The translations under genes and the position numbers were made by a program. From positions 1 through 53,198 of the IMG/VR virus record IMGVR_UViG_3300027734_000099: 53,198 nt of DNA; one strand, given 5' to 3'. Positions 10,563-43,951 of the stretch are shown here, in pieces (the stretch's first letter is position 1; each line of letters opens with the position of its first letter). Source of the DNA: a virus. Taxonomy: Duplodnaviria > Caudoviricetes. The notes beneath the pieces are model-generated. The model worked only from the letters and a program-made list of their open reading frames with translations, was not told the DNA's origin and did no database searches.

Positions 10563-11267
10563 TTAGGAGTAGTCCTTTTTAGTCCAATGCTTTAATTTAT
10601 ATGCTCCTCCACCCGAATCTATAGCATCTTCTCGCAAACTGTTCTGATTCCCCCTTAAATCATTATTTACTTTAATTTCCCACTCATGACGCTTGATAGG
10701 TATCACCTGTAGATATGGAGTTCCCTTAGGAATGATCCCCTCAAATCCTGTACTTACGCAAAATAAAGCTGATCCTGGTGCTGCAAAGGCATCTGTGTCT
10801 ACTAACCCTGAAAAAGTTATAAATGGTAGATCCGGCCTGTTAAGAGGATGAGTAATTAGAGCGCTATACCCTTCCGGAGTTTTAATTCCCCAAGGAACAT
10901 TCCAAGCAAAAGACCATTCCGAATAACCATTTATACGTTGTAACCCAAGTGAAACAGATGATGACCGCACCTCAAGAGGCCACAACTCTGAATTCCAACT
11001 TAAATCTGGTACAAAACCAGTTTCAACCTCTACCTGCATAATTTTAATATCACACCAAGTAGTCAACATATACCCAGCTGTCATGGCGTCTAGATACGGA
11101 ATGCATGCTTTTGCTGTAAGAGTGTCTCGTGTTTTATTTAAATTATCGCTATGCCTAGGTATTTCCTTGTACCAATCTGGAATTGTCCTTGAAGAGGGTA
11201 CTGGAGATGGTATTACCCGATTAATTGTGTTTGAAGGTGAATAGGTTTCAACAGTTAGTTTGTCCAT
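10563..11267 (-). CDS. dUTPase-fold/DUF6065-like protein (paralog of 49374-50084)
   Basis: IP.WYK, K.C.P.LDA..AGY, TP.GYS.L.THP.NR.DLPF...SG.VD.D, GTP..Q.IPIKR shared with 49374-50084. Confidence 0.7.
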   Translation of the reverse strand: MDKLTVETYSPSNTINRVIPSPVPSSRTIPDWYKEIPRHSDNLNKTRDTLTAKACIPYLDAMTAGYMLTTWCDIKIMQVEVETGFVPDLSWNSELWPLEVRSSSVSLGLQRINGYSEWSFAWNVPWGIKTPEGYSALITHPLNRPDLPFITFSGLVDTDAFAAPGSALFCVSTGFEGIIPKGTPYLQVIPIKRHEWEIKVNNDLRGNQNSLREDAIDSGGGAYKLKHWTKKDYS

Positions 11268-11342
11268 TCCCCCACCCTATCGCACTTAGGCCACTGTATG
11301 AGCATAGATACTCCCAACAGTTCGTCTCACCTGGCCAAACTT

Positions 11343-11414
11343 GGACAAAACGGACATTTAACCCATACCCCCCCAAAACGGACAAAGCGGACAAAAGCAA
11401 ACCAAACGGACAAA
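11343..11414 (+). repeat. Five GGACA(AA) direct repeats at strand switch
   Basis: Copies at 11343, 11352, 11380, 11389, 11408. Confidence 0.75.
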
Positions 11415-11469
11415 TAAACTAATAGTGAAGGCGGTCAGACCGAAGGTTAGAAAGTAGGTAATTCTGTGT

Positions 11470-11508
11470 GCGCCGTATAGTGCGGTTCGATTCCCACTAT
11501 ACGGGCGC
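11470..11508 (+). ncRNA. tRNA T-arm-like hairpin (GGUUCGAUUCC loop on about 15-bp stem)
   Basis: GCGCCGTATAGTG-C-GG-TTCGATT-CC-CACTATACGGGCGC. Confidence 0.5.
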
Positions 11509-11547
11509 GGGCTTACATCTAGTAAGTCTTAGCAGAAGGGGACTATT

Positions 11548-12069
11548 ATGTCCGCACGCGAAAATCTATCTGCCCTGTTGGCTACTCGTGGCAAGGGTGG
11601 CTCATTAGAGTCCATCTCCCAAGCGGGTAAGCACTTCAGCGCCGATAAGACGCTCACACCTTCCGACTTTATCGTAGATAAGTTGGAAGCCTCTAAGGCA
11701 ATCACACTACTCGGCGGGTTCGCCGTATCTACCTATGGCTTCGAGCCAGCGGTGGCTTACTCAATGCGTAATGTGTTTGCTAAGGAGTATGGCAAGGTGC
11801 TAGGTCTATTCGACCTTACACAGCCAGACTTCGTTGCTTCTATCAAGGAGATAGAGCAAGAGATTGCCACAGCAGAAGCCGATAAGGCTTCTCTTGACAT
11901 CTCATTAGGCGTAGATGCGGAACGCTACATCAAGAACGCTACTTCTCAGATTGAGAAGGTTATTGATGGTTCTGTATCGCCTAAAGTTCGCCACGACCTT
12001 CTCACTCTCCAAGCAATCATTGAGAAGAAGTTGGCTTACGCACCACTCAAAGTCGCACAGAACGCCTAG
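11548..12069 (+). CDS. Hypothetical early protein (first gene of plus-strand block)
   Basis: 173 aa, AGAAGGGG SD. Confidence 0.85.
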   Translation: MSARENLSALLATRGKGGSLESISQAGKHFSADKTLTPSDFIVDKLEASKAITLLGGFAVSTYGFEPAVAYSMRNVFAKEYGKVLGLFDLTQPDFVASIKEIEQEIATAEADKASLDISLGVDAERYIKNATSQIEKVIDGSVSPKVRHDLLTLQAIIEKKLAYAPLKVAQNA

Positions 12070-12078
12070 TTCGTAGTT

Positions 12079-12483
12079 AGTGGGGGGAGCAATCCCCCCA
12101 CTCTCTATCTATGTCCATAGTCATCTATGGGCGTAGATGGGGTTATGCCGACCAATCGGCTCACTCTGCTATGTAAGTAGCAGACCCCCGCACACGATTA
12201 CCTACTTTTCGTGTCTTCTGTCTATCGAGAAGCCCTAGCCGTCCCCTTCACAATGTCGGCTAGGGCTTTCTCATTCTCACATAGTGATACAACTCACATC
12301 ATAGATAGTTTGGCTACTGTCAAATTGACAACTATGAGCATTGAGAGACACACCAGGTCTGGGGCTATGTCTAGGGTCTGTTATCAGGTAGGTTGTGGAA
12401 GGCACATCTGTTCATCTATGAGGAGGGTCTTCATAGTATTTGAGTGCTAAGCAGGTGTGCCTCTCACTCTCTATCTGAGAGTG
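12079..12483 (+). ncRNA. Hairpin-dense non-coding region (candidate structured RNA A)
   Basis: Stems 12079-12102 (GCAA loop), 12103-12142 (18 bp, 4 G-U), 12227-12272, 12400-12462 (13 bp), 12465-12483. Confidence 0.5.
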
Positions 12484-12498
12484 TATGAAAGGATAGCT

Positions 12499-12699
12499 AT
12501 GAACTGTATCTATTGCGGACAGCCTGTGCATCCAGAGAGATGGGAAGCAGGCTATGAGTATTGTATGGCTCCTGAGTGTGCTCATCAGTTACGAGAGCGT
12601 GCTGAGCAATACAGGCTCATTTTAGTTCCTAAGCAGGGCTTTACCTATGTAGAGGCTGACTCTCCTCATCTCCTATCTGGTAAGTCATCAGGTAGATAA
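12499..12699 (+). CDS. Small Zn-finger protein
   Basis: CIYC...ERW.AGYEYC...C; GAAAGGA SD. Confidence 0.75.
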   Translation: MNCIYCGQPVHPERWEAGYEYCMAPECAHQLRERAEQYRLILVPKQGFTYVEADSPHLLSGKSSGR

Positions 12700-12717
12700 T
12701 TTCCCCGCGCTTTTTTA

Positions 12718-12826
12718 GTGTTGCTGATGGAAGATACATAGGACGACAGACTGAGGCTCGTAAGGTGTTAATTTGCCTGTGTAGCGTGTAGGTCGACTTT
12801 CCCTATGTATCTCTCATTGGTAATAC
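12718..12826 (+). ncRNA. Long bulged hairpin (candidate structured RNA B)
   Basis: GTGTTGCTGATG/CATTGGTAATAC (12 bp, 3 G-U) plus AGATACATAGG/CCTATGTATCT (11 bp). Confidence 0.5.
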
Positions 12827-12849
12827 CTTTTACCAATAGAAGGAGCATT

Positions 12850-12990
12850 ATGTTCACACTATCGATCAAGATAGGTTTTACCCGTAAGAAGAAAGAGATG
12901 ACAGATGTTGTATGTCATCACTGTGGACAGCCTTATCGTGTTCACATAAATAACATCAGAGCGGTCAATTACTGCACTAGTTGTAAGTAA
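12850..12990 (+). CDS. Small Zn-ribbon protein
   Basis: CHHC...CTSC; AGAAGGAG SD. Confidence 0.65.
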   Translation: MFTLSIKIGFTRKKKEMTDVVCHHCGQPYRVHINNIRAVNYCTSCK

Positions 12991-13014
12991 TACACCAAAT
13001 CTTCCCCGCGAAGT

Positions 13015-13300
13015 TTGAGATGGACAGAGGGCACACTGAATAGGCTGTCGATTGCACGGAGAACTGAATATCTATTGGGGTGTAACTATGAAGATAGATG
13101 GAAAGTGAAGAAGCGAAACAGAACGGACTTGGGTGCCTGAGGAATCCTGTGGCTGATAGTTACCTATCCAAGTAAGAGTGGAGTATGTAGGAAAAGACGC
13201 GACTGTGCTTACATACAGAATGAAACGACGCAAGAGGGACTGTGGCTGTGAGTCTCACGCAATTCCTTCAGTAATTCAGTGTGCCGTCTATCTATCTCAA
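13015..13300 (+). ncRNA. Candidate 286-nt multi-stem RNA with kissing-loop pseudoknot (RNA C)
   Basis: 27-position closing stem 13015-13041/13274-13300; internal stems; GTAACTAT/ATAGTTAC loop-loop pairing; no ORF. Confidence 0.6.
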
Positions 13301-13328
13301 CCGAGGTAGATGACAGAAGGGAGACGCA

Positions 13329-13919
13329 GTGTCAGGTGTAGCAAATGCAATGACACTAGAGCGTTTCTATGAGTACAACCCCCCAATTGACCCAGATAAG
13401 TCATATTGGTGGGCAGTGGATACTATTCAAGTAGGCGATTATGTAAGATCAAATAAAGATAAATACAACACCCACACATGGCGTGTCGTTGCTATCGGCG
13501 CCAATAGTTGGAAGAATATCTCAGTACTAATGGAAATGCCTTCAAACTATACAAAGACATCAGGTATCTATGACAAGTATTGGTCTTATGGTCTCAATGA
13601 GAACAATGAGCCGGTGTGTCGTAGAACTATGTATTTGAACAACATCAAAAAAATCAACCCAGAAAAAGGAGAAGATATGTGCCGCTGTCGTTCGTCATAT
13701 TGTTTTTGCGATAGTGCATTGACATACGAAGTTAATGAGCATTCATTGACTGTTGATGTATCTAAAGGCAAAACAATCCGGCTTACTCTTGAAGAGTGTG
13801 CTGAACTAGCATCATTCTTAGGAACTGCCAAAGGCAAGATAAAAGAAGCCAAGCTTGCTGCTCTCAAAGAGCAACAAGATGAGTTGGCTAAGCAACTAGC
13901 AGAAGTGGAGTCAATGTAA
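13329..13919 (+). CDS. Hypothetical protein with probable in-frame internal start at 13677
   Basis: AGAAGGGAG SD; second AAAGGAG SD before ATG 13677; coiled-coil C-terminus. Confidence 0.75.
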   Translation: MSGVANAMTLERFYEYNPPIDPDKSYWWAVDTIQVGDYVRSNKDKYNTHTWRVVAIGANSWKNISVLMEMPSNYTKTSGIYDKYWSYGLNENNEPVCRRTMYLNNIKKINPEKGEDMCRCRSSYCFCDSALTYEVNEHSLTVDVSKGKTIRLTLEECAELASFLGTAKGKIKEAKLAALKEQQDELAKQLAEVESM

Positions 13920-14005
13920 TGTATATTGAGTTCGAGCCACAGACTATCGTGATTATCTGTATCTCATTAGTCTTCATCGCAGCCATCAGAGCATGGCGTA
14001 AGTAA
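13919..14005 (+). CDS. 28-aa single-TM peptide (not in ORF track)
   Basis: MYIEFEPQTIVIICISLVFIAAIRAWRK; TAATG coupling. Confidence 0.55.
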   Translation: MYIEFEPQTIVIICISLVFIAAIRAWRK

Positions 14006-14006
14006 T

Positions 14007-14126
14007 TCCCAGAGAAAGGGATACACACTTCGGTGTGGTTGGTCTGACGAGACCTGAGGTAAAACACGTCCCGCGCATCGGGGTATATCTGCGTCTCACC
14101 TGAGCATGTGAAGGCTAAACTGCTCA
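14007..14126 (+). ncRNA. Structured intergenic RNA ending in H-type pseudoknot
   Basis: CACAC-TTCG-GTGTG, GGTCT/AGACC, pseudoknot TCAC/GTGA with TGAGCA/TGCTCA. Confidence 0.45.
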
Positions 14127-14145
14127 CCTAACAGAAGGGAAAGCA

Positions 14146-14520
14146 ATGACTATAACCATAGTCGAATGTGCACGCTGTCAGGAGCCACAAGTATTCAAGC
14201 CCATGTCTATGGACTCTGATATACCTGTTGCTTTAGATATATCTTTAGATGGTGGCTACGCAATGTTCGTAGACAACATCTATGCTGAGGGTGGTAAGAA
14301 CCCTCTGCAATTTACGTTGTGCCACAAGTGTGCCCACGAGTTCACAAAGTTCATGTGTATACCTGAGACCACAGTGTTTAACTGGCACTCAAATACAGAG
14401 GAGGAATACTGCAGTGGCTACACCAAAGAATGGTTTAACGAACAGTACGATAAACAAATCGCTTACGTCAAAGAAAACTGGCACAAGCAATTCCCCAACA
14501 ACCCATTCCCCAACTCTTGA
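14146..14520 (+). CDS. Zn-binding hypothetical protein (possible +1 extension to 14629)
   Basis: CARC...LCHKC; AGAAGGG SD. Confidence 0.75.
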   Translation: MTITIVECARCQEPQVFKPMSMDSDIPVALDISLDGGYAMFVDNIYAEGGKNPLQFTLCHKCAHEFTKFMCIPETTVFNWHSNTEEEYCSGYTKEWFNEQYDKQIAYVKENWHKQFPNNPFPNS

Positions 14521-15467: not shown

Positions 15468-15758
15468 ATGTTCACAAAACGTAAGTTGATAAAGCGTATA
15501 GAGCGCATGATGGTTGAGCAAGAGCTCGAACTTCATGACCTCGATTCGCAACACAGCAGGGCATACCACAGTGGCATCATAGATGGTCTTGGTATGGCAC
15601 TCTATGAAGTGTCCCCTGTAGTAGCACGTCGTAATCCAATCAGTATCGTATGGTTTGATGAGGACTATGACGATAATCGTATGACAGAGCGTTATCGTGA
15701 AGAAGCATTTGATGCTATAAACGATAGTTCTATCTTCGAAACTGTTGAAGCCAAGTAA
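15468..15758 (+). CDS. Hypothetical protein
   Basis: AGAAGGG SD before ATG 15468. Confidence 0.75.
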   Translation: MFTKRKLIKRIERMMVEQELELHDLDSQHSRAYHSGIIDGLGMALYEVSPVVARRNPISIVWFDEDYDDNRMTERYREEAFDAINDSSIFETVEAK

Positions 15759-17470: not shown

Positions 17471-17546
17471 GTTTCCTTAACAAATAGTTAGGGAATGTCA
17501 TAGCAATATGACAAACGATTCCATTACCAAAGAAGGGGTAAAAGCT

Positions 17547-18989
17547 ATGGATATCGCTGTATTCACGGAGTCATATGAACCAACTATGGGGGCAAATCGC
17601 CGTCAGGTTCTAATCACTCCACATGATGGAAATGTACGTATCTATTCACGTAACACAGACGGGACTAAAGGCCCTCACAATAAGTGGGAGGAAACAGACC
17701 TAGATAGTATTACTGGAGAGATATCTACAGGTGAGTCATTAACACGAACACCAGTTGCTGTGTACGTTACAGCAGCAGATGAGCGTGCAATGACTAGCAA
17801 AGGCTATTCCCCAGTCCTTGGCACCAAGGCATGTCAGGCACATACAAAAGCAACAGCTAACACTGACGCAACATCATTCGTAGATCGTATTTGCGAACTG
17901 TATGAAGCAGTAAGTAATGGTGATGATTCGCTTGAAGAATATGTAATTGACAATCGTCGTATGCCAGGCTCGCCTGTTCCAATGGGTGTTGTTCCAACAC
18001 AAACAATCCCCGCACCAACCATCACACCAGTCACAGAGACAGTTGTTCCTACAACCTCTGCACAACAAGGAGCAGTGATTAACGCAGCGCTTGCTTCAGT
18101 GCCACGCATTGAACTTGCTAAGCGTTATGTGCATAGAGATATCTGGTCCCGTCAGGACTTTGAAATCTTTGACCATGCACGTTCACAGAACATCAACGTC
18201 CTTATCTACGGCCCAACCGGCCCAGGTAAGACTACATCTGTTGAAGCATGGGCTGCTGAACGCGGCTTACGCATGGCAACAGTATCTGGTAACGCTTCAA
18301 TGGAGCCAAGCCAGATGACTGGTAAATATGTATCTGATGGCAATGGTTCATTTGCATGGATCGATGGCCCAGTTACAGACGTTGTTCGCAATGGTGGCGT
18401 CTTATTGCTCGATGAGGTTAACTTCATCAGCCCTAAGATTTACACAGTTCTATATTCATTGCTAGATGGTCGTCGTAACATTACGTTGCTAGACCACCAC
18501 GGTGAGACTATTGAGGCTAATAAAGACCTCACTATCTTTGCCACAATGAATCCAGATTACATTGGCACAACACCGCTCAACTTTGCATTCCGCAATCGCT
18601 TTGATATCCAAATCCCATGGGATTACGATGACAAAGTGGAGGCTAAGTTGGTTACATCTAAAGCCTTGCTAGTAGTTGCTAAACAACTTCGCGTTGAAGC
18701 AGGCAAAGGTCAGTATGAAACACCAATCTCAACTAACATGCTTCAGGAGTTTGTCAACTTTGTTGATGCTCTTGGTTATGAGTTTGCAGTTGAGAACTTT
18801 ATCGCTCACTTCTCTGCTGACGAAGCAGCAAGTGTGCGTCTTGTATTCCAGACACACGAGCACAATATCAAGACTGACTTTGGTATTGAGATTCCTATTG
18901 TCGTGGAAGAACAACCTGAAGGTAAATCACCTGAAGAACAACTTATGGAGTGGGCTGGACAATACGCTTCCCATAATGGCGTTATCTAA
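17547..18989 (+). CDS. MoxR/CbbQ/CobS-type AAA+ ATPase with N-terminal extension
   Basis: GPTGPGKT, LLLDEVN, ATMNP, A.RNRF. Confidence 0.9.
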   Translation: MDIAVFTESYEPTMGANRRQVLITPHDGNVRIYSRNTDGTKGPHNKWEETDLDSITGEISTGESLTRTPVAVYVTAADERAMTSKGYSPVLGTKACQAHTKATANTDATSFVDRICELYEAVSNGDDSLEEYVIDNRRMPGSPVPMGVVPTQTIPAPTITPVTETVVPTTSAQQGAVINAALASVPRIELAKRYVHRDIWSRQDFEIFDHARSQNINVLIYGPTGPGKTTSVEAWAAERGLRMATVSGNASMEPSQMTGKYVSDGNGSFAWIDGPVTDVVRNGGVLLLDEVNFISPKIYTVLYSLLDGRRNITLLDHHGETIEANKDLTIFATMNPDYIGTTPLNFAFRNRFDIQIPWDYDDKVEAKLVTSKALLVVAKQLRVEAGKGQYETPISTNMLQEFVNFVDALGYEFAVENFIAHFSADEAASVRLVFQTHEHNIKTDFGIEIPIVVEEQPEGKSPEEQLMEWAGQYASHNGVI

Positions 18990-19000
18990 GAAAGGTAACC

Positions 19001-20905
19001 ATGTATCAAGAACAGCTGGAAGATAACAGCTATTACGGAGAAGCCAGAGATGAGGATACACAAGAACGTGCTATCCGACTCAATGCTCTTTGTCGTGTCT
19101 ATGAACAGGCCGACAGAGTATTAACTGGCGACCCCGTGCTAGTGCACGTTATGCCTGATGGCCCCGCACCAGCGTGGTCTGATGGCGCAGCCATCTATAT
19201 CAATGTTAATGAAATTCAAGACATTGATTTAGAAACATTGACGCAGGTGAACGGCTTGAACTATCACGAGCTGTGTCATCACTTGTATACGCCTCGCAAA
19301 GGCACAACCTTAGTCCAATGGATTCAAGAGCAAAACTACTTCCAAGCGTTTAATATCTTGGAGGACCAACGCATCGAGACTCTATTCGTAGCAAGGTATC
19401 CATCAATATCACCATACCTAACAGCAACAGTTGCTCGTTGGCTTGGTGGTTCTGAAGACACAGGCGGTAACTACCTCTGCATTCGTGGTCGTCGTTATTT
19501 ACCTGTGGATATTAGGCAAGCATTCAGAGATGAATTTGCATTTCCTGAGCTAATTCCTAATATCATTGACATCGTAGACAAGTATCGTTTGCTGGCTTTC
19601 CCCAAAGATTATGAAACAGCAAAAGTATTAGTCGAACGACTCCACAAAGAAGTTCTAGTTCCAATGGGACTAGATGGACAATCATTCGGTGGCGGTCCTA
19701 ATGGATGTGGAGATCGTGCCCCAGTAGGTAAAGGTCGTCCTGAACCTGGCAAGGCACAAGAGAAAGATGCTGCACGTGCTTGCGGTATGGGAACTAAAGA
19801 ATCTACTTTTATTCCTAAACCTAAACAATCAGAGCCATCTAATAATGATGGCAATAGTGCAGGCAACACTCCAACACAAACAAACGACGGCTCCGGCCCA
19901 TACATACCACAAAGCACACAAGAGGCTCTAGATATTAGAGACCAACATGTGAACACACCAACATCACCAACAGCAGGAACTGGCCATGTAAAAAGCATGG
20001 GTGGTGTTCCTAACCATATCGATGACATGTTGAATGACGCTATCAATGAAGTGCTTGATCGTAAAGATGTTCAAGCCGACATTAAAGCCAAGCAACGTGT
20101 AATCGTGGGCGGTGATGGTAAACACGAAGATGTCACCAAGCGTGGCAAATTCAGCAGCACATCTGTGCCACAAGAAGCAATCATTAACTATCGTAAGTTC
20201 GCTAAAGAACTACAACGGTTGCGTGATGATTCAGAACCAGCATGGTCTAAAGAAACTCCATCTGGTCGTCTTAACGTGCAGCGTGTAATCAGAGGCTGTG
20301 AGATTGACCAAGCCTTTGATCGTTGGGAGGAAGGCGATGATGGTTGCGATATTGAAGCAGTCATCCTTGTCGATCGTTCCGGCTCAATGTCTAGTGGACA
20401 GAATGATAAGAAAGCATCTATTGCATGCTGGACTATCAAACGAGCACTAGAACACATTCAAGCACCGGTAACAGTCTATGCATTTGATGACCAAGCCGAA
20501 GTTGCTTACACCCGCACCGAACATGCTCACAAAACTGAGTATAAGTTCATCTATGGCAATGGTGGAACAGAACCGTATCCAGCATTGCTAGCCGCTGAAC
20601 AGCTTCTCATGTCTTCTCGTAAGAAGAACAAAATGCTGTTTATAGTTACTGATGGTGTGTTCAACACAAACAAAAATGACGAGCTAATTGAGCGTATCTC
20701 ACGCCGTGGGATTCTTACTGCAATGACCCTCATCATGAACGACAAAGAGTTCAAATACTATGTGGAAGATAGCAATCAACTAACCCTTGAAGGCTTAAAG
20801 CACAAGTCTGAAGTCTTTGGTCGAATCAGTAATGCCCAAGACCTGCTTCCCTTTGCACGACAGGTTGTTACATCTGCAATCCGCAAACGATCAAGAATAC
20901 GTTAG
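19001..20905 (+). CDS. vWA (MIDAS) protein with N-terminal HExxH metallopeptidase-like domain (CobT-like partner)
   Basis: HELCH, NILEDQRIE, DRSGSMS, GGT, VTDG. Confidence 0.88.
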   Translation: MYQEQLEDNSYYGEARDEDTQERAIRLNALCRVYEQADRVLTGDPVLVHVMPDGPAPAWSDGAAIYINVNEIQDIDLETLTQVNGLNYHELCHHLYTPRKGTTLVQWIQEQNYFQAFNILEDQRIETLFVARYPSISPYLTATVARWLGGSEDTGGNYLCIRGRRYLPVDIRQAFRDEFAFPELIPNIIDIVDKYRLLAFPKDYETAKVLVERLHKEVLVPMGLDGQSFGGGPNGCGDRAPVGKGRPEPGKAQEKDAARACGMGTKESTFIPKPKQSEPSNNDGNSAGNTPTQTNDGSGPYIPQSTQEALDIRDQHVNTPTSPTAGTGHVKSMGGVPNHIDDMLNDAINEVLDRKDVQADIKAKQRVIVGGDGKHEDVTKRGKFSSTSVPQEAIINYRKFAKELQRLRDDSEPAWSKETPSGRLNVQRVIRGCEIDQAFDRWEEGDDGCDIEAVILVDRSGSMSSGQNDKKASIACWTIKRALEHIQAPVTVYAFDDQAEVAYTRTEHAHKTEYKFIYGNGGTEPYPALLAAEQLLMSSRKKNKMLFIVTDGVFNTNKNDELIERISRRGILTAMTLIMNDKEFKYYVEDSNQLTLEGLKHKSEVFGRISNAQDLLPFARQVVTSAIRKRSRIR

Positions 20906-23955: not shown

Positions 23956-25986
23956 TTAATTATTATCTTTAATCAGTTTAACTTCACAGGCATCTGTGGT
24001 GCAGTACGCCTCCCCAACAGCATCTGCGGCCATACCTGCGTACACACCGGCAAAGTCAATTGGGAACAGTTTCATGCGAGCCTCTTCATACTCACTCTCA
24101 GTGATCTGAGTGTATGGCATCTGTGGGTATACAGTGTTACCCATAGGCAAGAACGAAACCGTCTTCAGCTGACCATCATGCATGTGAAGGATAGACGCAA
24201 TAGAGTCTGCTTCCTTCTCAGGGTCAAAGGTCACAGTTACAGATACAGAGTTATCTGACCAATAGCGTTGCGTTACAACGGCAAGCGCTACCTTTTCATG
24301 TACAGATACTTCTTTCTCAGCACGTTTTGCACTGGTTTGGATAGGGAAGAACACGACCGAAGTTGTATCTGGTGATTCAGATGCTGGCTCTACCTGATAG
24401 TTTGCCATTCTGAATAATGGGAGCATTGGGTCAGAGTTAGCAAAACGAATAGCTCTATTAAAGAACTTACCTCCGGATGCCCAGTGAACTCCAGGAGACT
24501 CACCGGCAAGAATGGATACGGTGCCAGATGGCTTGACTGTGGTCATCTTGATTGACTGACGAATACCCAACCATTCAGAATACGACTCGTCGTATCCCTT
24601 GACTACAGCGTAGCCCTCATTGAGCCAGTCACGGAGAATAGTCCAGCCATTGTTGTCAGCAAAGTTAGCAATACCAGAAATTGAGGTTCCGATACGGCGG
24701 TTACGTTGCATGATTGCGTTAGTTTCTTCCCAGTGAGTAGGGAGAAGTGTCACAGTCTTGGCGTATAAGTAGGCAAACTTTAGGGTGCGCTTGAAGTCCT
24801 CTAACGAGTCGTGCCTATTCAAGTAAGTCTCTACCAATGTACACATTTCAAAAGATTCTAGGCTTTGCTCAGCGCATGGGTTATACCCAGCAACACGCCA
24901 ATCTTTATTGTTAGGTGGATCAATCAAACGACCGTATTTGCGTGAAACATCCATCCAGACCACTCCTGGCTCGCCGTTGCGAACAATGCCATCAATGATC
25001 TTAGAGAAATCAGAACCTACTTTTGCCTCAACAGAGTTGTTAGACATCCAAGCCCATCCCGGATTCTTATGATCATAAGAGTTGCGCTCAGGATAAACTT
25101 CAGCATTCTTTAAGTTCAAAAAGTCCTCATCATCAATTCTACCGATGAGTAGCTCAGCTGACCTACGTACGTTTCCAGATACAACACAAACCCCGATTAG
25201 GTTGCCAATATCAGCAATGTCCTTACGGGTTAGTTTTTCTCCTGCACGTCCCTTAAAAATTCTATGAATATAGTTGTGTAGTCGTTCTAGCGGTTCGTGT
25301 CCTGCTGCGGTTCCGCCAAACGTTTTGATTGGAGTGCCTGCTGGACGGATTTCTTTGTAATCAAATACTGGAGCCTTGCTATCTGGCTTGAGGTAAGCAT
25401 TGATGACGGACGTGACGGATTCGACCCATCCTTCTCGGGTGTCTGGTACAACATATGTGTCTCCTTGATTTGGTTCATAGATAGTGAAGTCCTTGTCAGC
25501 CCCCTTATCGTCGAACCCTACTCCGACACCTAACATGGATGCTTCCATTAAGAAAGCAAATGGTTTTGCTGGGTTGAGCTTCGTCATCTCAGTTGTAGAA
25601 ACGAAAGCACAATTCTGTAGTGCGGCAGAGTTCCTCTGCTCATTAACAATTGGAGTTCCCATTACCCATAGTCCGCGTCCTGGCGGTGTCCACTTCAATT
25701 GGAACAACCGGTCAAATGCTTCTTTGGCTGATGATGCAGCTTTAGCATCTGACCAAGGTAAGCGTTGGGATTTAGCGTGGTCTTTTTGAAGGGAATACAT
25801 TCCGTTGATTACGCGTTCGCAAACTTCAACCCAAGTTTCTTTAGTACCGTCCTCTTTAAGACGAGAGTATGTTCGCAAGAAAGTAATTTCTCCGACACTA
25901 TTTCCCGCTGCGTCAGAATACCCCCAAGGAACAGTCTTACCTTTGTATGAGTTGACGAAATCCTCGGCTAATTTAAAAGAAAACAA
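23956..25986 (-). CDS. nrdJ: Class II (B12-dependent, RTPR-type) ribonucleotide reductase
   Basis: PPGRGLW, ALQNC, GNVRRSA, NPCAEQ, TVKPSGT, C-terminal CTTDAC; no small subunit nearby. Confidence 0.92.
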   Translation of the reverse strand: MFSFKLAEDFVNSYKGKTVPWGYSDAAGNSVGEITFLRTYSRLKEDGTKETWVEVCERVINGMYSLQKDHAKSQRLPWSDAKAASSAKEAFDRLFQLKWTPPGRGLWVMGTPIVNEQRNSAALQNCAFVSTTEMTKLNPAKPFAFLMEASMLGVGVGFDDKGADKDFTIYEPNQGDTYVVPDTREGWVESVTSVINAYLKPDSKAPVFDYKEIRPAGTPIKTFGGTAAGHEPLERLHNYIHRIFKGRAGEKLTRKDIADIGNLIGVCVVSGNVRRSAELLIGRIDDEDFLNLKNAEVYPERNSYDHKNPGWAWMSNNSVEAKVGSDFSKIIDGIVRNGEPGVVWMDVSRKYGRLIDPPNNKDWRVAGYNPCAEQSLESFEMCTLVETYLNRHDSLEDFKRTLKFAYLYAKTVTLLPTHWEETNAIMQRNRRIGTSISGIANFADNNGWTILRDWLNEGYAVVKGYDESYSEWLGIRQSIKMTTVKPSGTVSILAGESPGVHWASGGKFFNRAIRFANSDPMLPLFRMANYQVEPASESPDTTSVVFFPIQTSAKRAEKEVSVHEKVALAVVTQRYWSDNSVSVTVTFDPEKEADSIASILHMHDGQLKTVSFLPMGNTVYPQMPYTQITESEYEEARMKLFPIDFAGVYAGMAADAVGEAYCTTDACEVKLIKDNN

Positions 25987-43644: not shown

Positions 43645-43951
43645 CCTGGTCTATCCATTCTTCTAGTGTTAAACCTTGTTTTTCATACTTACGCTTTGCT
43701 GCATTTCTTTCTCTGTGTGACATGCCACCAAAGATTCCATGCAACTCATCGTTTATGATAGCTTCTTTAAGACATTCTTTGCGAACTGGACAAGCTGGTC
43801 GCCCATCCTTTCCCCAACAGATTGCTTTAGCTTTATCTGCTATCGGTTTGTATAAAGCTTTATCTCTTGGTGGGAAAAATATCTCTGTATCTTCCCCTCG
43901 GCATTTAGCCCTGTATCTCCAAGCCCATGTAGGCTCGTCGTCATATTCCAT
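43622..43951 (-). CDS. whiB: WhiB family transcription factor
   Basis: W..RAKC, FFP, AKAIC, CPV..EC, GIFGG...ER. Confidence 0.92.
   Translation of the reverse strand: MEYDDEPTWAWRYRAKCRGEDTEIFFPPRDKALYKPIADKAKAICWGKDGRPACPVRKECLKEAIINDELHGIFGGMSHRERNAAKRKYEKQGLTLEEWIDQDGKYGQA

What the first reader, a model, noticed from the sequence alone, without database searches (positions are those of the whole stretch)
13015..13300. 286-nt multi-domain RNA with 27-position closing stem and kissing-loop pseudoknot
Seen: 13015-13041 pairs with 13274-13300 (two mismatches). Internal stems are ATCTAT/ATAGAT (13070/13094), ACTTGGGTG/TATCCAAGT (13127/13165), GTATGTAGG/CTTACATAC and GGGACT/AGTCTC. The loops of the first two carry perfect 8-nt complements GTAACTAT (13082) and ATAGTTAC (13156). 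The linkers are purine-rich. Inference: a tertiary-folded large ncRNA. Its size is similar to actinobacterial Ms1 RNA, so an RNA polymerase decoy is one possibility, but no sequence match is claimed.
Basis: partly seen in the sequence, partly recalled or inferred. Interest (0 to 1): 0.75.

Follow-up and report, generated by a model that had tools for sequence, protein, structure and literature searches.

The report
New structured RNA in lake phages
A stretch of about 290 bases in a freshwater phage genome folds into a conserved non-coding RNA with a long closing stem and two loops that pair with each other; it matches no catalogued RNA family and its job is still unknown.

Summary
The 27-position inverted repeat, three of the four internal stems and the 8-nt loop-loop complement are at the stated coordinates. 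The + strand folds far better than shuffles (z -5.05).

I found 32 distinct full-length homologs, all in phage or metagenome contigs. There is one copy in each of 3 complete ~100-kb genomes. The phage is an actinophage-like virus that carries WhiB.

On a structural alignment, 96.5% of cells pair and 33 of 79 pairs show compensatory changes (0 of 500 shuffles reach this). The loop-loop kiss itself covaries. There is no conserved ORF and no Rfam match, even at E<=10.

The flanking genes differ between genomes. A strong intrinsic terminator follows in 17 of 29 loci examined. The 3' arm of the closing stem has a second, covarying partner just downstream.

Best reading: an autonomous phage ncRNA, made from the early transcript and probably released or insulated through its long double-stranded stem. 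Its target is unknown. The Ms1-like RNA polymerase decoy idea has no support.

The fourth stem (GGGACT/AGTCTC) is displaced by a covarying long-range helix.

The boldest open reading is self-assembly through loop contacts made between molecules.

The parts
12987..13014 (+). Conserved upstream block: GTAATACACC, 5 nt, TTCCCCGCGAA, GT. It is private to this locus. Role unknown: 5' leader, processing signal or protein site.
   Evidence: Present directly upstream of the element in all group A and B loci, in 1 or 2 tandem copies. The 11-mer occurs once per complete ~100-kb genome in 3 of 3 genomes at up to 1 mismatch. It is absent from the group C member L101.
13015..13041 (+). P1, 5' arm of the closing stem
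   Evidence: In the 32-sequence alignment, helix 1 has 97.5% of cells paired and 3 pairs with changes on both sides. The terminal pair switches U-A to C-G in L029 (also in L076, per the alignment). L101 carries two compensatory changes in the inner stem.
13274..13300 (+). P1, 3' arm of the closing stem. Its outer part (13290-13298) has a second possible partner downstream.
13044..13055 (+). P1b and P1c 5' strands (13044-13047, 13050-13055). They pair with 13259-13264 and 13269-13272 and extend the closing rod to about 37 pairs.
   Evidence: Helix 2 is 100% paired with 2 pairs changed on both sides (G-C 24 / A-U 8), plus an inserted pair in the L043 group.
13063..13106 (+). Hairpin-1 domain. 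Base helix 13063-65/13104-06; stem H1 13070-76/13093-99; loop carrying kiss site K1, GTAACTAT, at 13082-13089.
   Evidence: The base helix is 100% paired with 2 of 3 pairs changed on both sides. H1 is 97.9% paired with 4 of 6 pairs changed on both sides. In L101 the H1 stem has an entirely different sequence.
13107..13126 (+). Purine-rich conserved junction (GTGAAGAAGCGAA...) and the P2 5' strand (13118-13121)
   Evidence: The GAAGAAG and ACGGA blocks are invariant in 32 sequences. P2 is 93.8% paired and 5 of 5 pairs change on both sides.
13127..13173 (+). Hairpin-2 domain. Stem H2 13127-35/13165-73; inner hairpin around 13145-13153; kiss site K2, ATAGTTAC, at 13156-13163 in the internal loop.
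   Evidence: H2 is 100% paired with 4 of 9 pairs changed on both sides. The inner hairpin has 3 of 3 pairs changed on both sides. For the kiss in an anchored register, 235 of 256 cells are canonical, against 209.3 +/- 4.4 (maximum 224) when partners are permuted (0 of 2000 reach it) and 82-151 when the partner is slid.
13178..13231 (+). Hairpin-3 domain, variable in sequence. Stem 13183-91/13208-16. The apical loop carries GACGCGAC, which is replaced by GUCAUGA or UCUAGA in other members.
   Evidence: Helix 10 has 7 of 7 pairs changed on both sides and 97.3% of cells paired. Loop variants are listed; palindrome statistics are.
13240..13258 (+). P2 3' strand (13240-13243) and the small local hairpin GTGA/TCAC (13248-51/13255-58)
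   Evidence: The local hairpin has 122 of 128 canonical cells. L101 carries a compensatory U-A to C-G change.
13290..13311 (+). Alternative 3' hairpin. The outer 3' arm of P1 (13290-13298) pairs with 13303-13311. This pairing excludes the outer part of P1.
   Evidence: -14.8 kcal/mol against a shuffle mean of -5.2 in the window. A hairpin of this kind with 8 or more pairs is present in 25 of 31 distinct sequences. Compensatory changes occur in L034, L030 and L067.
13320..13331 (+). GGGAG (13320-13324) and the GTG start (13329) of the downstream 196-aa ORF. In most relatives an intrinsic terminator sits here instead.
   Evidence: A terminator with its T-run at +61 to +72 is found in 17 strong cases of 29 examined. 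Only the last 72 aa of the ORF are conserved, in 3 relatives.

Best explanation
The region 13015-13300 (+ strand) encodes a member of a so far uncatalogued family of phage non-coding RNAs. The family is found in ~100-kb WhiB-carrying, actinophage-like phages of fresh water.

Fold. The 5' and 3' ends form a rod of about 37 pairs (P1, P1b, P1c). The rod carries a branched core of three hairpin domains joined by conserved purine-rich strands. The loop of hairpin 1 pairs with an internal loop of hairpin 2 (the kiss), which locks the core into a compact fold.

Shown here: the RNA-level structure, its strand, its non-coding nature, the kiss, single copy per genome, and independence from the neighbouring genes.

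Inferred:
(1) The RNA is made by the host polymerase as the last part of the early leftward-to-rightward operon, or from its own start next to the private upstream block. In most genomes it ends at an intrinsic terminator about 60-70 nt after P1.
(2) The long perfect or near-perfect double-stranded stem is a processing and insulating device. It belongs to a set of similar long stems that punctuate this early region. A double-strand-specific nuclease such as RNase III would cut it. That would release a stable core RNA of about 250-290 nt. The downstream fragment would then refold into the alternative 3' hairpin as a protective 5' end.
(3) The released compact RNA acts as an independent molecule that binds a protein or other factor during early infection. 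The partner is not known.
For: Structure:
- + strand MFE z -5.05, against -3.88 for the - strand.
- On the MAFFT alignment of 11 sequences, 97.9% of cells pair and 16 pairs change on both sides (0 of 500 shuffles; slid controls 0-5 pairs).
- On the model-fitted alignment of 32 distinct sequences, 96.5% pair and 33 of 79 pairs (253 cells) change on both sides (0 of 500; slid controls 5-12 pairs).
- Sense-strand CM scores are 193-330 bits; antisense scores are 25-37 bits.

Kiss:
- Homologs fetched with a pattern in P1 only carry three alternative complementary pairs within group A, plus a different pair in group B.
- L101, fetched with a junction pattern, carries a further variant.

Non-coding: stops and frame-shifting indels occur in every frame, and variable columns number 58/96, 65/95 and 60/95 by codon phase.

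Autonomy:
- The upstream gene is p46 in 4 loci and absent in 4. The downstream gene differs or is absent.
- The element averages 78% column identity, while the neighbouring protein p173 falls to 43-47% amino-acid identity.
- There is one copy in each of 3 of 3 complete genomes.
- A strong terminator follows in 17 of 29 loci.

Processing model:
- The alternative 3' hairpin is conserved in 25 of 31 sequences with compensatory changes.
- Two further long stems upstream (12384-12478 and 12718-12826) are each followed by a local hairpin that uses the stem's 3' arm, then by the SD of a small gene.
- The 3' arm of P1 resembles the 3' arm of the first of these (score 10 against 3.1 +/- 1.6; 1 of 300 shuffles).

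Expression: two lake or freshwater metatranscriptome libraries from different studies hold exact contigs inside the element (13043-13193 and 13058-13195).
Against: - No end of the RNA was mapped. The RNA-library contigs also cover coding parts of the phage, and the tool warns that DNA can be present in such libraries.
- No promoter-like site was found on the + strand in 11200-14200, so the transcription start is unknown.
- RNase III cleavage is pure inference.
- The group C member has a shorter P1 (21 pairs). I saw no upstream block and recognised no alternative 3' hairpin there by eye. So these flanking devices are not universal.
- A strong terminator followed by more genes on the same strand fits a cis-acting regulator equally well.
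- Homologs were fetched by exact patterns, so the invariance of the pattern regions is partly by construction. The sequences are related, so the number of independent events is small. Alignment A7 was fitted to the model's structure.
- No partner protein is suggested by conserved neighbourhood: p124 is close by in 4 of 4 group A loci examined but absent near L101.
Confidence: 0.55

Rival explanations
1. Cis-acting regulatory RNA of the early transcript. Once transcribed, the folded RNA acts on the transcribing polymerase or on the terminator that follows, as a processive antiterminator or a factor-dependent attenuator. It thereby controls read-through into the downstream early or middle genes.
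For: The layout is structured RNA, then about 60 nt, then a strong intrinsic terminator, then further genes on the same strand, in 17 of 29 loci. In several of these the next ORF starts right after the T-run. The element sits in a long, highly structured early leader with other conserved hairpins. The 3' arm of P1 has an alternative, covarying partner, as expression platforms do.
Against: The alternative hairpin does not overlap the terminator stem, so no mutually exclusive terminator/antiterminator pair is visible. A P1 of 27-37 pairs is far too stable to be a switching helix. The terminator is missing from the other 12 of the 29 loci examined (11 without a hit, plus the weak L079 hit). Six of these, including the window, instead show a purine-rich stretch and an ORF start. 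The downstream genes are not the same.
Confidence: 0.2
2. The covarying loop contacts form between molecules, not within one. K1 of one RNA pairs with K2 of another, and/or the palindromic apical loop of hairpin 3 pairs with itself. The RNA would then assemble into a dimer, ring or larger RNA-only particle.
For: Covariation cannot tell pairs made within a molecule from pairs made between molecules. In ROOL and GOLLD, loop pairings first called tertiary from covariation proved to be intermolecular (passages of bioRxiv 10.1101/2024.12.08.627333). The hairpin-3 apical motif G-N-C-N-N-G-A-C keeps a self-complementary centre in all three variants: CGCG in 23, CAUG in 6 and CUAG in 1 of 32 sequences. 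The 8-nt palindrome of the GUCAUGA type is reached by 535 of 20000 shuffles.
Against: The CGCG palindrome alone is not unusual (11834 of 20000 shuffles), and UCUAGA is only mildly so (3192 of 20000). Two members (L034, L030) have a shortened hairpin 3 with no palindrome. By rough helix-length reasoning an intramolecular kiss is feasible (inference only). No multimer test was run.
Confidence: 0.15
3. RNA polymerase decoy in the manner of 6S or Ms1 RNA. The RNA would sequester host polymerase during takeover.
For: The size is similar. The host is probably an actinobacterium: WhiB is present and the closest DNA polymerases are from Streptomyces phages at 38% identity. The RNA sits in the early region.
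Against: No match to any Rfam family, including 6S and Ms1, at E<=10. The consensus fold is branched with three hairpin domains and a kiss, not a rod with a promoter-like bubble.
Confidence: 0.06
4. Nothing more than an intercistronic processing and stability module. Under this reading the inner 232 nt have no function of their own.
For: Similar long stems with a local 3' hairpin precede the two small genes upstream.
Against: The core is the best-conserved stretch of the region. It has invariant junction strands, six covarying helices and a covarying tertiary pair. The other two stems enclose only about 40-60 nt. Group C keeps the core but not the outer stem sequence.
Confidence: 0.08
5. Metabolite-sensing riboswitch, or a DNA-level element such as an origin, packaging site, MITE or retron template.
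For: The closing P1 with a multi-helix junction and a kiss resembles some aptamers. The unique upstream motif with tandem copies and a long inverted repeat resembles origins.
Against: No Rfam riboswitch matches, and the downstream genes vary. The structure is strand-specific with many G-U pairs. The element is single copy with no repeats elsewhere. No reverse transcriptase was found in 4 of 4 records. Terminators lie on the same strand.
Confidence: 0.05

Closest known systems
Large ornate bacterial and phage ncRNAs of unknown function (GOLLD, ROOL, OLE, raiA)
   Same: They are structured, conserved and non-coding, and some are carried by phages. Their purine-rich junctions and loop-loop pairs were detected by covariation (passages read).
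   Different: No covariance-model match to any of them. This RNA is much smaller, 269-293 nt here; their larger sizes are recalled, not from a call. The phage lineage and habitat set differ. No evidence yet of multimers.
phi29-type packaging RNA (pRNA)
   Same: The general plan is the same: the 5' and 3' ends form a long helix, and one hairpin loop and one internal loop carry mutually complementary sequences that covary. The pRNA features are recalled, not from a call.
   Different: No Rfam match. The kiss is 8 nt rather than about 4 (recalled). This phage has a T4-type large terminase and a ~100-kb genome, so it has no known need for a packaging RNA.
RNase III processing stems (T7 early mRNA sites; stems flanking rRNA precursors)
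   Same: Long double-stranded stems formed by sequences flanking a unit, repeated between cistrons of an early transcript. The T7 and rRNA facts are recalled.
   Different: Here one stem encloses a 232-nt conserved, tertiary-folded core. Cleavage is not shown.
Processive antitermination RNAs (HK022 put, EAR)
   Same: A structured RNA in an early transcript upstream of terminators. The put and EAR facts are recalled.
   Different: This RNA is three to four times larger, has no sequence or model similarity to them, and no functional test was possible.
6S and Ms1 RNA
   Same: Size is similar to Ms1 (recalled). The host is probably an actinobacterium.
   Different: The fold is branched, not a rod with a bubble, and there is no Rfam match.
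Candidate structured RNAs of the IMG/VR screen (Fremin, Bhatt, Kyrpides 2023, PMC10690425)
   Same: The source collection is the same. That screen reported 8495 candidates in IMG/VR, and 1241 of them contain a predicted terminator (abstract and passages read).
   Different: The main text names no motif of this description.

Membership tests
Any Rfam 15 family (4227 models, including 6S, Ms1, GOLLD, ROOL, OLE, HEARO, raiA, pRNA, group I/II introns, riboswitches, Y RNA-like) | Covariance-model score at or above the gathering score | tested here: not met
   0 matches in the whole window at gathering score. No match overlapping 13015-13300 at E<=10. 0 matches at E<=1 in four loci that carry group A, B and C members.
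6S / Ms1 RNA polymerase-binding RNAs | Rod-like fold with a large central bubble that mimics an open promoter | tested here: not met
   The consensus fold has a terminal rod, then two multi-helix junctions, three hairpin domains and a kiss.
6S / Ms1 RNA polymerase-binding RNAs | Binding to RNA polymerase holoenzyme or core | not testable with these tools
   Needs a pull-down or gel-shift experiment.
phi29-type pRNA | Association with a phi29-like protein-primed genome and its packaging ATPase | tested here: not met
   The window encodes a T4-type large terminase (Terminase_6N/6C). Related complete genomes are ~100 kb.
phi29-type pRNA | Complementary hairpin-loop and internal-loop sequences that pair between molecules | tested here: inconclusive
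   The complementarity and its covariation are shown. Whether the pairs form within or between molecules cannot be told from sequence.
Riboswitch | Aptamer coupled to an expression platform in which P1 competes with a terminator or SD-sequestering helix, upstream of functionally related genes | tested here: not met
   The alternative partner of the P1 3' arm does not overlap the terminator stem. P1 is 27 pairs. The downstream genes differ.
Retron msr-msd RNA | Adjacent reverse transcriptase gene | tested here: not met
   RVT_1 was found in 0 of 4 records (the window and three complete relatives). The control rang in 3 of 14 genomes.
MITE / insertion-sequence remnant | Multiple copies with terminal inverted repeats and target-site duplications | tested here: not met
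   One copy in the window and one in each of 3 complete genomes. The internal helices covary as RNA.
RNase III-type processing stem | Double-stranded stem of about 20 pairs or more formed by the flanks of the released unit | tested here: met
   27 positions in the window, with fewer mismatches in many relatives.
RNase III-type processing stem | Cleavage by RNase III in vivo or in vitro | not testable with these tools
   Needs end mapping or an enzyme assay. The RNA-library data held here are contigs only.
Self-splicing intron | Interrupts a gene whose exons join into a continuous frame | tested here: not met
   The upstream ORF ends at a stop 24 nt before P1. The flanking genes differ between genomes. 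There is no intron model match.

The most novel reading that the evidence does not exclude
The RNA is a self-assembling particle. The covarying K1-K2 pairs and the palindromic apical loop of hairpin 3 would be contacts between copies. A ~290-nt phage RNA would then build a dimer, ring or cage without protein. It would be a small actinophage counterpart of the ROOL/GOLLD/OLE assemblies or of the pRNA ring, made early in infection.
Probability: 0.15. Interest if true: 0.85.

Novelty: new variant of a known kind. Interest (0 to 1): 0.62.

Why it matters
Few phage ncRNAs of this size have a fold supported helix by helix, tertiary contact included, and almost none come from phages of the abundant freshwater actinobacteria. 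This one is small enough (about 290 nt) for chemical probing and cryo-EM. It is single copy and better conserved than its neighbouring genes.

It also offers three testable devices in one locus: a long processing-type stem, a competing 3' hairpin and a covarying kiss. If it binds a host factor, it would show a new takeover route. If it assembles with itself, it would extend RNA-only quaternary structure to a much smaller RNA. If it acts on the polymerase in cis, it would be a new class of antiterminator.

Even without a function, the alignment and model are ready to become a new RNA family entry.

Tried and rejected
Searches that found nothing useful:
- blastn (distant mode) of 12400-14000 against 50,697 phage records: no match.
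- Relatives of the downstream 196-aa protein in viral contigs: none.
- Pfam and PHROGs on the neighbouring small proteins: nothing.
- Long inverted repeats at the syntenic place in 11 distant relatives that share only the phrog_7084 protein: nothing comparable.
- The covariance model found 0 hits in 58 unrelated or distant loci (558,670 nt).
- The model confirmed 0 real members among the 32 pattern hits in bacterial and archaeal genomes. The P1 pattern found 0 stretches there.
- The kiss-based pattern in viral contigs returned 25 stretches. 11 are family members. 9 are one unrelated AT-rich phage sequence and 5 are scattered chance matches.
- The sigma-70-type promoter scan found none on the + strand in 11200-14200.
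- No T7-like RNA polymerase in three complete relatives, but that search's control rang nowhere, so it says little. No Sigma70_r2 either.

Ideas I considered and dropped:
- I looked by eye for pairing of the upstream TTCCCCGCGAA block with junction strands, with the G-run in the tail and with the hairpin-3 loop. I found only 4-6 pairs, not conserved. The block does not covary with the hairpin-3 loop variants.
- Enrichment of CsrA-type GGA motifs: 8 in 286 nt, about what the composition predicts (my count).

A statistic that did not discriminate:
- The position-free 'longest complementary run with G-U allowed' was uninformative. Shuffled loops reach 5.9 on average, so the 5-6-pair kiss of group B is not beyond chance on that measure alone. 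Its support comes from the anchored-register counts and from the one-sided changes in L068 and L072.

Read data:
- Parts of 12000-14200 without cover in the three RNA libraries say nothing.

Tools and files I could not use:
- Supplements of PMC10690425 are closed, so I could not check whether the motif is already listed there.
- Literature searches listed no paper describing this RNA. That is a limited search, not proof of absence.
- Complex prediction, structure prediction and protein database searches were not used.
Full report
WHAT IS THERE.

The window is a 53,198-nt IMG/VR virus record, estimated 54% complete. It encodes:
- a T4-type large terminase, a class II ribonucleotide reductase, a family A DNA polymerase and an SNF2 helicase;
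- CobS/CobT-like AAA_5 and VWA proteins;
- a WhiB protein at 43700-43921 on the - strand.

Its DNA polymerase is closest to ~113-116-kb Streptomyces phages, at 38% identity. I therefore read it as a phage of a freshwater actinobacterium. That is an inference from WhiB, from the polymerase and from the library labels 'lake water' and 'freshwater'.

The element lies on the + strand in a gene-poor stretch (12070-13328). This stretch follows a divergent gene junction at 11268-11547 and holds only two small CxxC ORFs, at 12499-12699 and 12850-12990.

THE OBSERVATION.

The 27-position closing stem has two mismatches and one G-U.

The + strand folds to -95.6 kcal/mol (z -5.05; 0 of 200 shuffles as good). 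The - strand folds to -75.1 (z -3.88). An 8-nt Watson-Crick complement between the two loops arises in 437 of 200000 shuffles of the loops.

HOMOLOGS.

Protein-anchored searches gave two relatives. Four exact-pattern scans then added more:
- A pattern in the P1 5' arm and the bases just after it found 8 viral stretches.
- A pattern in the kiss loops found 25 stretches, of which 11 are family members.
- A pattern in the two P1 arms found 31 metagenome stretches. All 31 are true members, with nhmmer E<=8.4e-49.
- A pattern in the central junction found 49 stretches, of which 13 are family members. Two of those are new and identical to each other: L101 and L108.

After removing duplicates there are 32 distinct full-length sequences of 269-293 nt. 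They fall into three groups:
- Group A: 17 sequences, including the window.
- Group B: 14 sequences.
- Group C: L101.

Each of three complete ~100-kb relatives has exactly one copy. Neither of two patterns found a real copy in one genome each of 185,579 bacterial and archaeal species.

Caveat: because retrieval used exact patterns, the invariance of the pattern regions is partly by construction.

SECONDARY STRUCTURE.

RNAalifold on 8 and on 11 sequences, and counts on a stated structure, agree.
- On the MAFFT alignment of 11 sequences, 97.9% of cells pair and 16 pairs change on both sides (0 of 500 shuffles; slid controls 0-5 pairs).
- A covariance model built from that alignment aligned all 32 distinct sequences. 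There, 96.5% of 2493 cells pair, and 33 of 79 pairs (253 cells) change on both sides (0 of 500 shuffles; slid controls 5-12 pairs). That alignment is fitted to the structure, which favours it. The MAFFT-based count does not have that bias.

Supported helices:
- P1, P1b and P1c
- a 3-pair helix closing the hairpin-1 domain
- H1
- P2 (5 of 5 pairs with double changes)
- H2 and its inner hairpin
- the two-part hairpin 3 (7 of 7 pairs in its upper stem)
- a 4-pair local hairpin

One 3-pair helix is weak (74.7% paired).

Bases 13240-13243 covary with 13118-13121, not with 13251-13254.

THE KISS.

The kiss is GUAACUAU / AUAGUUAC in 14 distinct sequences. The variants are:
- L075 and L055: GGAACUAU / AUAGUUUC (U-A becomes G-U).
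- L066: ACAACUAU / AUAGUUGU (two compensatory changes).
- L101: GUAACUGC / GUAGUUAC (U-A becomes C-G, and A-U becomes G-U).
- Group B: GGCUA(A) / (U)UAGUC at the same places in the two loops. L068 has GACUA / UAGUC and L072 has GGCUA / UAGCC.

I anchored the register on the shared CUA/UAG core. In that register:
- 235 of 256 cells are canonical.
- Permuting partners among sequences gives 209.3 +/- 4.4, with a maximum of 224 (0 of 2000 reach the observed value).
- Sliding the partner gives 82-151.
- Positions -2 (A-U 18, G-C 14) and +3 (U-A 17, A-U 7, C-G 1) change on both sides.

Against: in group B position -3 is broken in 14 of 14 sequences and position +3 in 7 of 14. Its kiss is therefore only 5-6 contiguous pairs, which is not unusual on a position-free measure. 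The A-to-B switch may be a single evolutionary event.

The group B and most group A sequences were fetched with a pattern that does not include the kiss, so this test is not circular.

NOT CODING, AND STRAND-SPECIFIC.

Every frame is broken by stops or frame-shifting indels in some homologs. Variable columns show no codon periodicity (58/96, 65/95, 60/95).

Sense matches to the model score 193-330 bits and antisense matches 25-37 bits.

No Rfam family matches at gathering score. None matches the element at E<=10. None matches four loci carrying other family members at E<=1.

CONTEXT.

The neighbours vary:
- The 46-aa ORF upstream is present in 4 of the first 8 loci.
- Of the downstream 196-aa ORF, only the last 72 aa are conserved, in 3 loci, and it is absent from L030.
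- The upstream 173-aa protein drops to 43-47% identity in L029, L031 and L033.

The element itself keeps 78% mean column identity across all 32 sequences.

A block GTAATACACC-N5-TTCCCCGCGAAGT precedes P1 in groups A and B, in one or two tandem copies. Its 11-mer occurs once per complete genome. Group C lacks it. I could not assign it a role.

Downstream, my script flagged a terminator-like hairpin plus T-run in 18 of 29 loci. I gave it 29 of the 31 distinct sequences then known: L032's contig ends too soon, and I left out L071. L071's flank shows a GC-rich inverted repeat followed by a T-run, like the others. Of the 18, 17 are strong (-18.9 to -31.3 kcal/mol, T-run at +61 to +72). One, L079, is weak and lies in an ORF.

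The window and five others (L034, L030, L068, L064, L079) instead have a purine-rich stretch followed by an ORF start.

A SECOND PARTNER FOR THE 3' ARM.

The outer 3' arm of P1 (AUCUAUCUC) can pair with GAGGUAGAU a few bases downstream. In the window this hairpin scores -14.8 kcal/mol, against a shuffle mean of -5.2.

A hairpin of this kind with 8 or more pairs is present in 25 of 31 distinct sequences. Compensatory changes occur in L034 (U-A to A-U, which breaks the P1 pair), L030 (C-G to U-A) and L067. The L043 group (4 sequences) and L078/L056 lack it. They have changes that keep or improve P1 instead.

Both pairings therefore seem to be under selection, and they exclude each other over about 10 pairs.

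THE WIDER LEADER.

The 430 nt before the first small ORF and the spacer before the second hold further conserved hairpins:
- 12074-12107, in 13 distinct sequences, covarying
- 12227-12271, in 17 distinct sequences, covarying
- long stems at 12384-12478 and 12718-12826

In the window, each long stem is followed by a local hairpin that uses the stem's 3' arm (-11.6 and -12.4 kcal/mol, against shuffle means of -6.8 and -5.5). The SD of the next gene comes after that.

The 3' arm of P1 resembles the 3' arm of the 12384-12478 stem (score 10 against 3.1 +/- 1.6; 1 of 300 shuffles). The other arm comparisons are not significant.

This repeated design is the main basis for my processing model. Cleavage itself is not shown.

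EXPRESSION.

Three RNA libraries from three studies hold parts of 12000-14200. When laid:
- X1 has an exact 151-nt contig at 13043-13193.
- X3 has an exact contig at 13058-13195, with 13-letter loose ends on both sides. I take these to be adapter remnants (recalled, not from a call).
- X2 has a relative's contig over 13228-13281.

Coding parts of the phage are covered too, and DNA can be present in such libraries. This is weak support for transcription and says nothing about the ends.

HOW IT MOST LIKELY WORKS.

Shown: a compact, strand-specific RNA fold with a covarying tertiary pair. It is single copy and independent of its neighbours.

Inferred: the RNA is transcribed with, or at the end of, the early operon. 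It is insulated and probably excised through its long double-stranded stem. The downstream fragment refolds into the alternative hairpin. The core acts as a free RNA on an unknown partner.

I put 0.55 on this package.

The main rival, at 0.2, is a cis-acting role on the polymerase or on the terminator that follows. The layout fits that role, but no competing terminator/antiterminator pairing is visible.

The boldest reading that the data allow is self-assembly, at 0.15. Covariation cannot separate pairs made within a molecule from pairs made between molecules, as the ROOL and GOLLD structures showed (passages read). The apical loop of hairpin 3 keeps a self-complementary centre in all three of its variants (CGCG 23, CAUG 6, CUAG 1 of 32; two members lack the loop). 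The statistics are modest: 11834, 535 and 3192 of 20000 shuffles for the three types.

COMPARISON AND NOVELTY.

The RNA is not a member of any Rfam family. It is not a retron: no reverse transcriptase was found in 4 of 4 records. It is not a repeat or MITE. It is not an intron, and it does not show riboswitch logic.

In plan it works most like a processed, stand-alone structured ncRNA. Formal likenesses are to rRNA-type or T7-type processing stems, and to the two complementary loops of pRNA.

It may already be one of the 8495 unnamed IMG/VR candidates of Fremin et al. 2023 (abstract and passages read). The lists are in supplements that I could not open. My three literature searches listed no description of it.

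I rate it a new RNA family within a known general kind, with interest 0.62.

Noticed in passing
window 12074-12107: A hairpin (GUGGGGGGA...UCCCCCCAC) sits right after the stop of the 173-aa gene. It is conserved in 13 distinct relatives with compensatory changes. No T-run follows; CUCUCUAUCU follows instead.
   Followed up: partly
window 12227-12271: A perfect 12-16-pair hairpin (GAGAAGCCCUAGCC...GGCUAGGGCUUUCUC) with a conserved 15-nt loop, present in 17 distinct relatives. One compensatory U-A to C-G change was seen.
   Followed up: partly
window 12384-12478 and 12718-12826: Two more long imperfect stems (27 and 25 positions) lie upstream of the small CxxC ORFs at 12499-12699 and 12850-12990. 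Each is followed by a local hairpin that reuses its 3' arm, then by the gene's SD. The first stem's 3' arm resembles the P1 3' arm.
   Followed up: partly
window 12698-12997: The module 'long stem plus 46-aa ORF' lies between two copies of the TTCCCCGCG motif (12701 and 13002, 301 nt apart). It is absent from L032, L035, L029 and L031. L032 and L035 then carry two tandem motif copies. This looks like cassette gain or loss by recombination between the short repeats.
   Followed up: partly
window 13183-13216 (hairpin 3 apical loop): The loop motif GACGCGAC is replaced in other members by a 7-nt loop GUCAUGA (6 sequences) or by UCUAGA (1 sequence). All have self-complementary centres.
   Followed up: partly
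window 14146-14520: A 124-aa CxxC protein with no Pfam or PHROG family is 81-98% identical in four relatives, far more conserved than its neighbours. It lies 0.4-1 kb downstream of the RNA in group A but was not found near the group C copy.
   Followed up: partly
window 13329-13919: In the 196-aa ORF downstream of the RNA, only the C-terminal 72 residues are conserved (67-69% identity, in three relatives). The N-terminal 125 residues have no counterpart there.
   Followed up: no
window 43700-43921 (-), 17508-20905 (+), 23956-25986 (-): A WhiB-family protein, a CobS-like AAA_5 ATPase with a VWA (CobT-like) partner, and a B12-dependent class II ribonucleotide reductase. This gene set fits a freshwater actinophage.
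   Followed up: partly
L101:2553-2821 (-): A divergent family member in a related 35-kb phage contig has a 21-pair P1 of different outer sequence and no upstream motif. It sits directly upstream of homologs of the window's 15468-15758 and 15761-16471 genes.
   Followed up: partly
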